Below are positions 38,487-55,323 of a DNA stretch of 64,000 nt, piece after piece. The notes under the pieces were generated by a model that was given only the letters and a program-made list of their open reading frames with translations, was not told the origin of the DNA and ran no database searches. Positions within the stretch are counted from its first letter, which is position 1; each line of letters starts with the position of its first letter. Source of the DNA: the human T2T-CHM13v2.0 reference genome, Homo sapiens; the NCBI RefSeq assembly GCF_009914755.1, contig NC_060928.1; one strand, 5' to 3'. A program made the translations under genes and the position numbers.

Positions 38487-40019
38487 TTTTATTATTATTA
38501 TTATACTTTAAGTTTTAGGGTACATGTGTACAACATGCAGGTTTGTTACATATGTATACATATGCCATGTTGGTGTGCTATACCCATTAACTCGTCATTT
38601 AACATTAGGTATATCTCCTAATGCTATCCCTCCCCCCTCCCCCCACCCCACAACAGGCCCGGTGTGTGATGTTCCCCTTCCTGTGTCCATGTGTTCTCAT
38701 TGTTCAATTCCCACCTATGAGTGAGAACATGTGGTGTTTGGTTTTTTGTCCTTGAGATAGTTTGCTGAGAATGATGGTTTCTAGCTTCATCCATGTACCT
38801 ACAAAGGACATGAACTCATCCTTTTTTATGGCTGCATAGTATTCCATGGTGTATATGTGCCACATTTTCTTAATCCAGTCTGTCGTTGTTGGACATTTGG
38901 GTTGGTTCCAAGTCTTTGCTATTGTGAATAGTGCCGCTATAAACATACGTGTGCATGTGTCTTTATAGCAGCATGATTTATAATCCTTTGGGTATATACC
39001 CAGTAATGGGATGGCTGGGTCAAATGGTATTTCTAGTTCTAGATCCCCGAGGAATCCCACACTGACTTCCACAATGGTTGAACTAGTTTACAGTCCCACT
39101 AACAGTGTAAAAGTGTTCCTATTTCTCCACATCCTCTCCAGCACCTGTTTCCTGACTTTTTAATGATCGCCATTCTAACTGGTGTGAGATGGTATCTCAT
39201 TGTGGTTTTGATTTGCATTTCTCTGATGGCCAGTGATGATGAGCATTTTTTCATGTGTCTTTTGGCTGCATAAATATTTTCTTTTGAGAAGTGTCTGTTC
39301 ATATCCTTTGCCCACTTGTTGATGGGGTTGTTTGTTTTTTTCTTGTAAATTTGTTGGAGTTCATTGTAGATTCTGGATATTATCCCTTTGTCAGATGAGT
39401 AGGTTGCAAAAATTTTCTCCCATTCTGTAGGTTGCCTGTTCACTCTGATGGTAGTTTCTTTTGCTGTGCAGAAGCTCTTTAGTTTAATTAGATCCCATTT
39501 GTCAATTTTGGTTTTTGTTGCCATTGCTTTTGGTGTTTTAGACATGAAGTCCTTGCCCATGCCTGTGTCCTGAATGGTATTGCCTAGGTTTTCTTCTAGG
39601 GTTTTTGTGGTTTTAGGTATAACATTTAAGTCTTTAATCCATCTTGAATTAATTTTTGTATAAGGTGTAAGGAAGGGATCCAGTTTCAGCTTTCTACATA
39701 TGGCTAGCCAGGTTTCCCAGCACCATTTATTAAATAGGGACTCCTTTCCCCGTTGCTTTTTTTTGTCAGGTTTGTCAAAGATCAGATAGTTGTTTATATG
39801 CGGCATTATTTATGAGGGCTCTATTCTGTTCCATTGGTCTATATCTCTGTTTTGGTACCAGTACCATGCTGTTTTGGTTACTGTATCCTTGTAGTATAGT
39901 TTGAAGTCAGGTAGCATGATGCCTCCAGCTTTGTTCCTTTGGCTTAGGATTGACTTGGCAATGCAGGCTCTTTTTTGGTTCCATATGAACTTTAAAGTAG
40001 TTTTTTTCCAATTCTGTGA
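38487..40019 (-). mobile_element. 5'-truncated LINE-1 (L1PA3-5 age), ~1.5 kb of the 3' end
   Basis: 3'UTR ttatactttaagttttagggtacatgtg; ORF2 C-terminal peptides; ends ttccaattctgtga directly against an Alu tail. Confidence 0.97.
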
Positions 40020-40335
40020 TTTTTGTTTGTTTGTTTGTTTGTTTTTTTGTTTTTGAGACAGTCTGGCTCTGTCGCCCAGGCTGGAGTGTAGTGGCACGAT
40101 CTTGGCTCACTGCAACCTCCACCTCCTAGGTTCAAGTGATTTTTCCTGCCTCAGCCTCTCGAGTAACTGGGATTACAGGCCCCTGCCACCACAGTCAGCT
40201 AATTTTTGTATTTTTAGTAGAGATGGGGTTTCACCAAGTTGGCCAGGCTGGTCTCAAATTCCTGACCTCAAGTGATGCCCCAATGTTGACCTCTTAATGT
40301 GCTAGGATTACAGGCATGAGCCACTGTGCCCAGCC
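40020..40335 (-). mobile_element. AluS
   Basis: (tttg)n tail, gagacagtctggctctgtcgcccagg...gagccactgtgcccagcc. Confidence 0.95.
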
Positions 40336-41619
40336 CAGAATAGCTGACGTCTGTAAAAACATGGCACAGTTTAGTAACAATCTTATTGCAAATGATGTTC
40401 TTTATTATTTCATCATTTCTGAGCTCTAGGAGAGTTCTCACTGAGAAATCTGATTATATTAATTTTCTTTCAAACATTGTTTCTCATCAACAGGCTATTT
40501 CGGAAAGGACAAATTTCCTTTGTCATAATGTAGGTATGTAAGTCATTATGGAAGGCACCATTAGATTTAGAACTGGATATACATTATCTTCTGTAAAGTT
40601 GTCTCACTTTCTTTGTTCATTCCACTTTACATAGATGATAAATTTATTATGTATTTGATACAGTCATATGAACTAATTGATCTTACTGTAACATAACTAT
40701 GAACAGACAAATAATTATATAAATAAATAGACACATAGACAACTACATAAGTAGATGTATATATAAATAACTTTGATTGATAAAGAGACAAATATGCAGT
40801 TTTTATTGTAAACAATACAATATGATATGATTTTGTCTCTTCCATCAAATCACATTTAATAGGAAAGAAAGACTCTAAAGTGAAAAATATAATGATAAAT
40901 ATAAGCATAAGATGTATACAGGCCCTTGAACCCACATAAAGGTGGAAAAAGAGAGATGGAAGTTGATGGTCAATAGAAATTTCCTGAAGCTGGGGAATCT
41001 TGCAAAATTAAGTAAATAAAGGTGGGAATATTCCAGGTTGCTGGAGTGCCATACAAAGGCAGTACAATATGTCAGAATGTTCTATGTTTGGGGAACTTCA
41101 AGAACATTTTGGTATGGTGCAATATCATATTCAAGAGGAGTAGTGGCCAGATAATAATGAGTCTTATATTTAATGCAAAGCAAATGAGAATCAAATCTTT
41201 AATGCAATATTACATAACAATTGCCTAAAGATCCTGATTCAGTAGGTAAGGCTTTGGCATATTCATTTTTAGCAAATAACTCAGGTGATTTTTGAGGCTA
41301 TTTGCCTCAAATTTATTAGATATTATTTATTAGATAAAACTTTTGAAACGTTGCTTCGTAATGAGAGTCTTGAAAGTGTTCACCAGGCCATACCAAGGAA
41401 AGATTTCTTTTGAAAATAATAAATTCTCTGACATTTGGTGAAGAAATGAATTGGAACAAGTTGGTAATAGGAAATAATATAAATTAGGAAGTTGTTAAAT
41501 AATCTAGGTGAGAAATGATAAAAGTCTCACCTATGGCACTGCTGGAAGTAGACAAAATATATGGAAATTGTTAATAAGGAAGAATCGCCTGATCAATACC
41601 AAACCACCACTCATATATA

Positions 41620-53537: not shown

Positions 53538-53655
53538 AATTTAAAAATACTTTATTGCTAAAAGATGCTAACGATCAAGTGAAACTTCAGTGAGTTTCAA
53601 TCTTTTAGCTGGTGGAGGGTTTTGCCTGGATGTTGATGGCTGCTGGCAATTTCTT
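53538..53655 (-). other. L1 3' transduction: Tigger1-like segment with AATAAA (53551-53556, minus strand) and second poly-A (53530-53537)
   Basis: Lies between the L1 poly-A and the TSD; aatttaaaaatactttattgctaaaa...gctggtggagggttttgcctggatgttgatggctgctg resembles recalled Tigger1. Confidence 0.85.
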
Positions 53656-55323
53656 TTTGTTTTTTTTTTAATTTTATTATTATTATACTTTAAGTTTTAG
53701 GGTACATGTGCACAACGTGCAGGTTTGTTACATATGTATACATGTGCCATGTTGGTGTGCTGCACCCATTAACTCGTCATTTAGCATTAGGTATATCTCC
53801 TAATGCTATCCCTCCCCAATTCCCCCACCCCACAACAGTCCCCGGTGTGTGATGTTTCCCTTCCTGTGTCCGTGTGTTCTCATTGTTCAATTCTCACCTA
53901 TGAGGGAGAACAGGCGGTGTTTGGTTTTTGTCCTTGTGATAGTTTGCTGAGAATGATGGTTTCCAGTTTCATCCATGTACCTACAAAGGACATGAACTCA
54001 TAATGTTTTATGGCTGCATAGTATTCCATGGTGTATATGTGCCACATTTTCTTAAACCAGACTATCGTTGTTGGACATTTAGGTTGGTTCCAAGTCTTTG
54101 CTATTGTGAATAGTGCCGCTATAAACATACGTGTGCATGTGTCTTTATAGCAGCATGATTTATAATCCTTTGGGTATATACCCAGTAATGGGATGGCTGG
54201 GTCAAATGGTATTTCTAGTTCTAGATCCCCGAGGAATCCCACACTGACTTCCACAATGGTTGAACTAGTTTACAGTCCCACCAACAGTGTAAAAGTGTTT
54301 CTATTTCTCCACATCCTCTCCAGCACCTGTTGTTTCCTGACTTTTTAATGATCGCCATTCTAACTGGTGTGAGATCGTATCTCATTGTGGTTTTGATTTG
54401 CATTTCTCTGATGGCCAGTGATGATGAGCATTTTTTCATGTGTCTTTTGGCTGCATAAATGTCTTGTTTTGAGAAGTGTCTGTTCATGTCCTTCGCCCAC
54501 TTGTTGATGGGGTTGTTTGTTTTTTTCTTGTAAATTTGTTTGAGTTCATTGTAGAGTCTGGATATTAGCCCTTTGTCAGATGAGTAGGTTGCAAAAATTT
54601 TCTCCCATTCTGTAGGTTGCCTGTTCACTCTGATGGTAGTTTCTTTTGCTGTGCAGAAGCTCTTTAGTTTAATTAGATCCCATTTGTCAATTTTGTCTTT
54701 TGTTGCCATTGCTTTTGGTGTTTTAGACATGAAGTCCTTGCTCATGCCTATGCCCTGAATGGTATTGCCTAGGTTTTCTTCTAGGGTTTTTGTGGTTTTA
54801 GGTCTAACATTTAAGTCTTTAATCCATCTTGAATTAATTTTTGTATAAGGTGTAAGGAAGGGATCCAGCTTCAGCTTTGTACATATGGCTAGCCAGTTTT
54901 CCCAGCACCATTTATTAAATAGGGAATCCTTTCCCTGTTGCTTGTTTTTGTCAGGTTTGTCAAAGATCAGATAGTTGTATATATGTGGCTTTAATTCTGA
55001 GGGCTCTATTCCGTTCCATTGGTCTATATCTCTGTTTTGGTACCAGTACCATGCTGTTTTGGTTACTGTATCCTTGTAGTATAGTTTGAAGTCAGGTAGT
55101 GTGATGCCTCCAGCTTTGTTCTTTTGGCTTAGGACTGACTTGGCGTTGTGGGCTCTTTTTTGGTTCCATATGAATTTTAAAGCAGTTTTTTCCAATTCTG
55201 TGAGGAAAGTCATTGGTAGCTTGATGGGGTTGGCATTGAATCTATAAATTACCTTGGGCAGTATGGCCATTTTCACGATATTGATTCTTCCTACCCATGC
55301 GCATGGAATGTTCTTCCATTTGT
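53654..55323 (-). mobile_element. LINE-1 (L1PA3/4-like) 3' segment, non-inverted part
   Basis: Poly-T, 3'UTR, and the 379-aa ORF2 C-terminal ORF 54221-55360 with the CWRGC...HCWWDC knuckle. Confidence 0.97.

What the first reader, a model, noticed from the sequence alone, without database searches (positions are those of the whole stretch)
38487..55323. Two independent L1 insertions 15.2 kb apart share about ten non-consensus bases, including the same ORF2 frameshift
Seen: the L1s at 38487-40019 and 53654-55323 have different flanks and 5' structures. Both nevertheless read agatccccgaggaatcccacac (39041-39062 and 54223-54244), where the recalled consensus is agatccctgaggaatcgccacac. The L1PA8 in this window keeps the extra base (gaatcaccacac, ~27083). 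The 1-nt loss turns WKSVWRFLRDLE into [14 protein letters not shown] just after the Cys knuckle, which is why both copies give the odd [20 protein letters not shown]. Other shared bases: catgtAcct (38797/53979), gccgcTata (38938/54120), cttGttgatg (39318/54503), tttttGtgg (39607/54792), ctctAttc (39823/55008), ctgtaTcc (39886/55071). The copies also have many private differences, so this is not a recent duplication. Known: L1 proteins show cis preference, and the ORF2p C-terminal region is required for retrotransposition. Inference: either both came from one ORF2-truncated source mobilised in trans (a non-autonomous L1 sublineage), or ancient gene conversion homogenised the neighbours. Some shared substitutions may simply be subfamily markers; the frameshift is the hard one to explain.
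Basis: partly seen in the sequence, partly recalled or inferred. Interest (0 to 1): 0.8.

Follow-up and report, generated by a model that had tools for sequence, protein, structure and literature searches.

The report
Neighbouring L1 copies homogenised by conversion
Two dead L1 retrotransposon fragments 15 kb apart on human chromosome 4 really do share a unique set of mutations, including one frameshift, and the likeliest cause is an old DNA copy-over between neighbours, which is a known and ordinary process.

Summary
Both minus-strand L1 3' fragments (38487-40019 and 53654-55323) carry the exact 22-mer. It occurs nowhere else in the 3.1 Gb assembly. Against 25-26 unrelated copies, they share 10 minority substitutions plus the 1-nt ORF2 deletion.

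This is not a dispersed frameshifted sublineage.
- 14 other copies have the same deleted state. None of the 13 examined carries the neighbouring A>G or more than 3 of the 11 shared alleles.
- Each shared allele recurs alone in 63-132 copies. The combination exists only here.

Homology between the two loci stops at the L1 borders. B has its own inverted 5' segment, so the two are separate insertions.

Overall they are no closer than random same-family pairs: 71 differences against a mean of 61. A 200-bp stretch around the frameshift is identical (P about 0.01).

Best reading (about 0.7): old non-allelic gene conversion between same-orientation neighbours, which carried a random post-insertion deletion from one dead copy to the other.

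Main rival (about 0.15): one frameshifted source mobilised twice. Internal tests for a bounded tract are weak. Proximity carries most of the argument. Ape orthologues would settle it.

The parts
38487..40019 (-). L1 copy A: 3' 1.53 kb of an L1PA-type element (ORF2 C-terminal part and 3'UTR). It has a short poly(A) at the low-coordinate end and is 5'-truncated at 40019.
   Evidence: Sequence read. 95.2-95.4% identical to copy B. Aligns full-length with dozens of genome copies. Carries the older 'type I' state at 11 of 11 sites that separate the two background groups.
53654..55323 (-). L1 copy B, 3' segment: 1.67 kb, same family and same orientation as A, with its own poly(A) and flank.
   Evidence: 'Type I' state at 11 of 11 sites. 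The best unrelated genome copies are 96% identical, no less than A is (40 of 12,645 candidates scored).
55324..56355 (+). Inverted 5' segment of copy B: ORF2 sequence on the opposite strand. It ends about 15 nt short, in L1 coordinates, of where the 3' segment begins. The layout is that described for twin priming (name recalled, not tested).
   Evidence: Read directly. It shows that B is its own insertion event, with a structure that A lacks.
39041..39062 (-). 22-mer in A holding the 1-nt deletion (sense GGCGATT>GGGATT) and the A>G nine bases away (sense CTCAGGG>CTCGGGG). The frameshift leads to a stop five codons later.
54223..54244 (-). The same 22-mer in B.
38797..39886 (-). Minimal shared tract in A: the span from the first to the last of the 11 shared minority alleles, all inside ORF2.
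   Evidence: No shared minority allele lies in the 5' 142 columns or the 3' 315 columns.
53979..55071 (-). Minimal shared tract in B.
38900..39099 (-). 200-bp stretch of A that is identical to B 54082-54281. It includes the deletion, the A>G and 38938.
   Evidence: The simulated chance of so long a run with 65 differences and site-specific rates is 0.008-0.011.
54082..54281 (-). The matching 200-bp stretch in B, identical to A 38900-39099.
40020..40335 (-). Alu in the same orientation. Its A-rich tail abuts the truncated 5' end of L1 A. It is not part of the shared sequence.
   Evidence: Read. Matches another Alu at 60736-61051. The sequence beyond it is not L1.

Best explanation
A and B are two separate, 5'-truncated insertions of the same L1PA-grade family. 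They landed 15.2 kb apart in the same orientation. One of them then picked up ordinary neutral mutations, including the 1-nt deletion in the dead ORF2 remnant. Later, non-allelic (interlocus) gene conversion copied about 1.1 kb or more of one element onto the other, in one long event or several shorter ones. This transferred the whole set of lesions. After that, each copy went on diverging, by about 1.6% per copy in the tract. The 200-bp identical block around the frameshift may mark a later, shorter event. The frameshift has no bearing on mobilisation.

Shown: the middle part is identical by descent, the combination is unique in the genome, and the flanks and structures are independent.

Inferred: that the mechanism was conversion, its direction and the number of events.
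For: 1. The combination is unique. The 22-mer has 2 of 2 genome hits, both here. K-mers for four single shared alleles give 68, 132, 63 and 78 hits. By my reading of the listed places, no other locus combines two of them except C10:5175xxxx (L063), which shares only 4 of 11. For the 132-hit k-mer, 32 places were not listed.

2. In 351 pairs among 27 rows, A-B share 7-8 rare alleles and all but one other pair share 3 or fewer. Chance parallelism is therefore excluded.

3. The insertions are independent. There is no flank homology. B has an inverted 5' segment and A abuts an Alu.

4. A and B are not overall close. They show 71 differences, against a mean of 61 (range 44-78) for random type I pairs. 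Unrelated copies match B at 96%. A true sister pair on different chromosomes (L058/L061) has only 22 differences, and 3 of its 8 shared alleles lie in the 3' end. A-B have 0 of 11 there.

5. The total mutation load of A and B is 46 and 48 changes. The middle holds 30-31, including the shared ones, and the ends hold 16-17. This pattern fits ordinary type I copies of one age. Three type I copies not picked by BLAST score have 26-45 in the middle and 16-26 at the ends.

6. A 200-bp run without any difference around the frameshift has P about 0.01.

7. Established knowledge: conversion between dispersed repeats rises with proximity and identity. For Alu it is elevated within 10 kb (passage in PMC6598467, citing Aleshin and Zhi 2010). 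Intra-chromosomal conversion into an L1, and repair of a break in a LINE by conversion from other LINEs, are reported (passages in PMC1920257).

8. By my own rough estimate, two members of a two-copy lineage landing within 15 kb by chance is about 1 in 100,000. About 2% of copies of this family should have a same-family neighbour that close, given 760 exact hits of a family-specific 37-mer.
Against: The tract is not sharply bounded.
- Simulated with site-specific rates, the confinement of the shared alleles to columns 262-1381 is not significant (P 0.06-0.29, depending on how many alleles are counted).
- The share of A-B differences lying in the ends is 32-33 of 71. This falls between what conversion and common descent predict, and rejects neither (my arithmetic).
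- Differences at lineage-diagnostic sites looked like evidence for different sources (8 of 48 sites). But the control sister pair shows the same enrichment (3 of 48 with 22 total differences), so this test does not discriminate.
- Inside the tract, A and B differ at family-polymorphic sites: alignment columns 347, 860 and 1278, and 645, which is column 641. This requires patchy or repeated conversion, or later mutation.
- A continuous tract of 1.1 kb or more is long for mammalian conversion (recalled).
- The private load of A and B in the tract (18-19) equals that of the BLAST-picked type I copies (19.8). A late common source would also predict this.
- No outgroup genome could be examined.
Confidence: 0.7

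Rival explanations
1. Common defective source. A type I L1 copy that had already decayed (about 7-11 changes per 1.1 kb, including the ORF2 frameshift) was transcribed and mobilised in trans by another element's proteins at least twice. Both 5'-truncated progeny happened to land 15 kb apart.
For: The shared alleles are identical by descent. The private load of A and B (about 35 changes each) is close to that of BLAST-picked type I copies (33.8 per copy), as expected if both were inserted while the family was still active. Clustering of the shared alleles in the middle is not statistically significant. Sister pairs from minor sources do exist: L058/L061 on different chromosomes. Two other copies (L085, L086) carry 4 of the 11 alleles each and could be earlier offshoots.
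Against: Only two carriers exist in 3.1 Gb, and they sit 15.2 kb apart. The chance for a two-member lineage is of order 1 in 100,000 (my estimate), and no local reinsertion bias of L1 is known (recalled). None of the 11 shared alleles lies in the faster-evolving 3' 315 columns, whereas the control sister pair has 3 of 8 there. A-B are more diverged than the average random type I pair (71 against 61), unlike the control sisters (22 against a type II mean of 42.5). The 200-bp identical block (P about 0.01) has no explanation under this model. The partial sharing by L085, L086, L063 and L079 is what recurrence of alleles at 0.5-1% frequency predicts.
Confidence: 0.15
2. One copy is the parent of the other. 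Read-through transcription of B (or A) gave an RNA that was retrotransposed in trans and landed nearby. Or a DNA-level duplication copied only the L1 part.
For: Either would give identity by descent restricted to these two copies. A has only a very short A-tail after the AATAAT repeats.
Against: A parent-offspring relation predicts sharing of the parent's lesions over the whole common length, including the 3'UTR, where none is shared. It also meets the same positional coincidence as the common-source model. A segmental duplication predicts at least one shared flank, and none is found.
Confidence: 0.07
3. Coincidence or artefact. Either the same changes arose independently at mutable sites, or the region was mis-assembled.
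For: The deletion itself recurs: 14 other copies have the same state, and 21 more of the 37 hits are shortened by one base in other ways. Each substitution recurs in 63-132 copies.
Against: Joint sharing of 7-8 alleles, each at about 1% or less, is seen in only 2 of 351 pairs. The two copies differ at 65-71 positions and have different flanks, so they are not a collapsed or duplicated assembly segment.
Confidence: 0.02

Closest known systems
Non-allelic (interlocus) gene conversion between neighbouring dispersed repeats, as described for Alu elements (Aleshin and Zhi 2010, known to me only through the passage in PMC6598467)
   Same: Two independently inserted copies of one repeat family lie close together in the same orientation and share variants that the rest of the family lacks. 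Distance and identity favour the process.
   Different: Here the repeats are 1.5-kb L1 fragments 15 kb apart, beyond the under-10-kb range quoted for Alu. The apparent tract (1.1 kb or more) is much longer than an Alu. The event is old: 3.3% divergence has built up since within the tract.
Gene conversion involving L1 elements: intra-chromosomal conversion inferred at a human L1 locus, and repair of a break in a mouse LINE from other LINEs (passages in PMC1920257, which cites Tremblay et al. 2000)
   Same: L1 sequence is overwritten by sequence from another L1 on the same chromosome.
   Different: Those cases were recognised by a foreign segment or in cell culture. Here the evidence is a shared set of private lesions in two old neighbours, without an outgroup.
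Minor L1 source lineages (sister copies from one source), exemplified here by L058 (C7) and L061 (C3)
   Same: 7-8 shared rare alleles in a pair.
   Different: The control sisters are on different chromosomes, are far closer than average (22 differences) and share alleles into the 3'UTR. A and B are adjacent, no closer than average (71 differences) and share alleles only in the ORF2 part.
Trans-mobilised non-autonomous elements (Alu, SVA, processed pseudogenes) and defective L1s rescued in trans
   Same: A frameshifted ORF2 in the template would require proteins supplied in trans.
   Different: Such lineages are dispersed. This one would have exactly two members, side by side.

Membership tests
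Non-allelic gene conversion between repeats | The two copies are independent insertions, with different flanks and structures | tested here: met
   Only the L1 body and unrelated Alus match between the two regions. B has an inverted 5' segment; A is truncated against an Alu tail.
Non-allelic gene conversion between repeats | A segment is identical by descent: variants are shared by the pair and absent as a set from other family members | tested here: met
   The 22-mer is unique to the pair. The pair shares 7-8 rare alleles, against 3 or fewer in 349 of 351 pairs. No other locus combines the alleles.
Non-allelic gene conversion between repeats | Mosaic structure: a bounded tract, with the rest of each copy showing separate histories | tested here: inconclusive
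   No shared allele lies outside columns 262-1381, but the range test gives P 0.06-0.29. The lineage-site test did not discriminate against the control pair. The 200-bp identical run has P about 0.01.
Non-allelic gene conversion between repeats | An outgroup shows the pre-conversion state at one locus | not testable with these tools
   No other primate genome is held.
Non-allelic gene conversion between repeats | Physical proximity and high identity of the partners | tested here: met
   15.2 kb apart, same strand, same family group (11 of 11 diagnostic sites each), 95.2-95.4% identical now.
Non-autonomous (frameshifted) L1 sublineage spread in trans | Several dispersed copies carry the same disabling lesion with the same linked variants | tested here: not met
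   2 of 2 genome hits of the 22-mer are A and B. Of 14 other carriers of the same deleted state, 13 were examined and one (C3:183999335) was not. None of the 13 has the adjacent A>G or more than 3 of the 11 alleles.
Non-autonomous (frameshifted) L1 sublineage spread in trans | Source-specific variants run along the whole shared length of the progeny | tested here: inconclusive
   0 of 11 lie in the 5' 142 or 3' 315 columns, but this is not significant.
Primate L1 (L1PA-grade) 3' fragments | Sequence homology to genomic L1 copies over ORF2 and the 3'UTR, ending in an A-rich tail | tested here: met
   12,645 first-look candidates, with 95-96% matches over 1,624 bases. 5,516 hits of a 78-mer at 3 mismatches or fewer. 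The ORF2 frame and natural stop were located. The subfamily name (L1PA3-5) was NOT tested, because no repeat library was on hand.

The most novel reading that the evidence does not exclude
A decayed type I L1 copy with a frameshift-truncated ORF2 served as template for at least two trans-mobilised retrotranspositions, and both progeny integrated within 15 kb of each other. That would be a two-member non-autonomous L1 lineage, and it would hint at local reinsertion.
Probability: 0.12. Interest if true: 0.6.

Novelty: new member of a known kind. Interest (0 to 1): 0.22.

Why it matters
The finding is modest.

If the conversion reading is right, this is one more clean example that old dispersed L1 fragments tens of kilobases apart can exchange sequence. 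Such exchange blurs divergence-based dating and subfamily assignment of individual copies. It can also make a random lesion look like a lineage marker.

It gives a practical warning for repeat phylogenies: shared 'diagnostic' lesions in neighbouring copies need a genome-wide frequency check before they are read as a sublineage.

Only the minority reading (trans-mobilisation of a frameshifted source with local reinsertion) would bear on L1 cis-preference.

Tried and rejected
1. A 'G>T lineage'. I fetched 20 of the 61 other carriers of the allele at 38797/53979. They are spread over the younger, the older and a still older family, so this is recurrence and not a lineage.

2. L079 and L063 as relatives of the source. 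Each shares 4 of 11 alleles. L079 sits among the older-family copies, and for both the sharing is what alleles at 0.5-1% predict.

3. L085 and L086, the only other exact carriers of the 78-mer with both 39886 and 39823 alleles. They share 4 of 11 alleles and nothing informative at the ends.

4. 'A is older-type, B younger-type' at lineage sites, as proof of different sources. I dropped this because the control sister pair shows the same enrichment of differences at those sites.

5. A first analytic estimate that the absence of shared alleles at the ends had P below 0.001. I rejected it as post hoc. The proper span simulation gives 0.06-0.29.

6. A pooled rare-allele count over 48 rows. It was confounded by rows that had been selected for the very alleles being counted and by the minority older family. 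I replaced it with the 27-row count.

7. Segmental duplication. Rejected.

8. Larger unbiased type I sample. The family-specific 37-mer gave 760 places but no loci could be cut out.

Aleshin and Zhi 2010 is not held.

10. Three paper searches turned up no study of homogenisation between neighbouring L1 fragments. These searches do not cover subscription journals.
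Full report
WHAT IS THERE

The window is G000:C4:140864001-140928000. Both elements lie on the minus strand.

Copy A (38487-40019) is the last 1.53 kb of an L1. It has a short A-tail at its low-coordinate end, and its truncated 5' end abuts the A-rich tail of a same-orientation Alu (40020-40335). The sequence beyond the Alu is not L1.

Copy B has a 1.67-kb 3' segment (53654-55323, minus strand). This is followed by an inverted ORF2 segment on the plus strand (55324 to about 56355). The inverted segment's L1 coordinates end about 15 nt upstream of where the 3' segment begins. 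That is the layout described for twin priming (name recalled, not tested).

A blastn of 33000-45500 against 48000-62000 finds only the L1 body (95.2% over 1541 columns) and three Alu-Alu matches. The two are therefore separate insertions and not a duplicated block.

THE OBSERVATION

The 22-mer is present at both stated places. These two places are its only exact occurrences in the 3.1-Gb assembly.

On the sense strand both copies read GTGTGG-GATTCCTCGGGGATC. All 25 undeleted rows of the 46-row alignment keep the extra base; 20 of them read GGCGATT and 5 have a substitution there. No row other than A and B has the G in CTCGGGG: 37 read CTCAGGG and 5 CTCAAGG. The frame then runs [14 protein letters not shown].

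I compared A and B with 26 copies taken from a BLAST of copy B against the genome. That search scored 40 of 12,645 candidates; two rows that duplicated deletion-search loci and one aberrant row were dropped. A and B share ten substitutions that are in the minority, plus the deletion.

The two copies differ at 71 of 1531 columns, or 65 of 1514 counting substitutions only.

IS THE SHARING MORE THAN CHANCE OR SUBFAMILY?

The deletion alone is not special. A 28-mer across it, allowing up to 2 mismatches, has 37 hits:
- A and B
- 14 other copies with the same GGAATCCCACAC state
- 21 shortened by one base in other ways

Of the 14 same-state carriers, ten were aligned and three were checked by k-mers. 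One, C3:183999335, was fetched but not examined. The aligned ones belong to all three family groups seen here. None of the 13 has the neighbouring A>G, and none shares more than 3 of the 11 alleles.

Each substitution alone also recurs. K-mers for four of them give 68, 132, 63 and 78 exact hits. For scale, a 78-mer of this region has at least 5,516 hits at 3 mismatches or fewer.

Four shared alleles are family polymorphisms rather than rare lesions:
- 39259/54444 is the state of the older family.
- 39318/54503 is found in 3 of 26 background copies, and 38938/54120 in 5 of 26.
- 39823/55008 occurs on an otherwise identical 78-mer in some 35 copies, by my count of the listed 1-mismatch rows.

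The combination is what is unique. By my reading of the listed places, no locus combines two of the four k-mers except A, B and L063; 32 places were not listed. L063 shares 4 of 11 alleles. The two other exact carriers of the 78-mer with both 39886 and 39823 alleles (L085, L086) share 4 of 11 each.

In a set of A, B and 25 background rows (351 pairs), A-B share 7-8 rare alleles. One other pair shares the same number, and all remaining pairs share 3 or fewer.

The middle part of the two copies is therefore identical by descent.

WHICH PROCESS?

The other outlier pair, L058 (C7) and L061 (C3), serves as a control for 'two progeny of one minor source'. It has only 22 differences, against a mean of 42.5 for its family group. 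Three of its 8 shared alleles lie in the 3' end.

A and B behave differently. They have 71 differences, against a mean of 61 (range 44-78) for random pairs of their own group. None of their 11 shared alleles lies outside alignment columns 262-1381. Unrelated copies match B at 96%, no worse than A does.

The mutation loads, relative to the majority of their group, are as follows for 5' end / middle / 3' end:
- A: 5 / 30 / 11
- B: 6 / 31 / 11
- BLAST-picked copies: 3.4 / 19.8 / 10.6
- three copies not picked by score: 5-10 / 26-45 / 10-17

The totals look like ordinary copies of one age in which about 11-12 of the middle changes happen to be common to both.

A 200-bp block around the frameshift (38900-39099 = 54082-54281) has no difference at all. 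With site-specific rates, the simulated P is 0.008-0.011.

WEAK POINTS, STATED PLAINLY

- The confinement of the shared alleles to the middle is not significant once the span is tested properly (P 0.06-0.29).
- The split of A-B differences between the ends and the middle lies between the two models.
- The excess of differences at lineage-diagnostic sites (8 of 48) is matched in the control pair (3 of 48 with 22 total), so it says nothing.
- Within the tract, the copies differ at a few family-polymorphic sites. A single clean tract is therefore unlikely. Patchy or repeated events, or later mutation, are needed.

WHY CONVERSION IS STILL PREFERRED

The argument rests on position. A family-specific 37-mer has 760 exact hits, so a few thousand copies exist. 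On that basis about 2% of them should have a same-family neighbour within 15 kb (my estimate).

By contrast, the two members of a lineage that has only two members should fall within 15 kb about once in 100,000 (my estimate).

Conversion between dispersed repeats is known to rise with proximity and identity (PMC6598467, passages). It has been inferred or shown for L1 and LINE sequences (PMC1920257, passages).

I put conversion at about 0.7, a common frameshifted source at about 0.15, parent-offspring or L1-only duplication at about 0.07, and coincidence or artefact at about 0.02. The remainder is left open.

MEANING OF THE FRAMESHIFT

Both copies were dead on arrival, being 5'-truncated.

Copy A also carries a +1 insertion, a 3-nt deletion and two premature stops of its own. 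Copy B carries one further private 1-nt deletion near the natural stop.

Under the preferred reading, the shared deletion is a random lesion of one dead copy that was copied to its neighbour. It says nothing about cis-preference.

DATING

Shared changes amount to about 1% of the tract, and private changes since then to about 1.6% per copy. With a recalled neutral rate of roughly 0.15-0.2% per million years, the conversion would be of order 10 million years old and the insertions somewhat older. This rests on recall and on a small background sample.

The subfamily names (L1PA3-5) could not be tested because no repeat library was available.

LIMITS

- Pattern counts come with the tool's own caveat that counts for repeats can be lower bounds.
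- The background of 25-26 copies was picked by similarity to B and is biased towards little-diverged copies.
- Only three copies not picked by score were available for the load comparison.
- No primate outgroup was available.

Noticed in passing
L003 / L064 = G000:C4:140825102 (about 38.9 kb before the window start, opposite strand): A third L1 with the same 1-nt deletion lies 78 kb from copy A, so 3 of the 8 exact 28-mer hits in the genome fall within 93 kb. It belongs to the younger family group (1 of 11 type I sites). It has A rather than G at the neighbouring site and shares only the deletion and one family-polymorphic allele (2 of the 11). This is either a coincidence (my rough estimate is a few in a thousand) or a very short conversion tract. 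It is unresolved.
   Followed up: partly
window 40007-40340: The truncated 5' end of L1 A is joined directly to the A-rich tail of a same-orientation Alu, and non-repeat DNA follows the Alu's 5' end. A possible 5-bp direct repeat (AGAAT) flanks the Alu-plus-L1 composite. This could be an Alu insertion exactly at the L1 junction, or a chimeric retrocopy made by template switching.
   Followed up: no
window 55324-56355 with 53654-55323: Copy B has the inverted-5'-segment layout described for twin priming, with about 15 nt of L1 missing between the two segments. No clear target-site duplication was seen by eye.
   Followed up: partly
L058 (G000:C7:101053089-101054623) and L061 (G000:C3:96487844-96489378): Two younger-group L1 copies on different chromosomes share 7-8 rare alleles and differ at only 22 positions. 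They look like a genuine sister pair from a minor source, or part of an inter-chromosomal duplication. Here they were used only as a control.
   Followed up: partly
L034 and L035 (G000:C23:153737739-153739364 + and C23:153577467-153579092 -): Two L1 copies 160 kb apart on contig 23, in opposite orientation, give identical scores against copy B and the same states at every tabulated site. They probably belong to a large inverted duplication. One of the two was dropped from the counts.
   Followed up: no
window 39752/54937 (alignment column 396-400): The shared T>C created a CpG. A still has CG and B now has CA. This is a small internal sign that the sharing predates a good deal of later decay.
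   Followed up: yes
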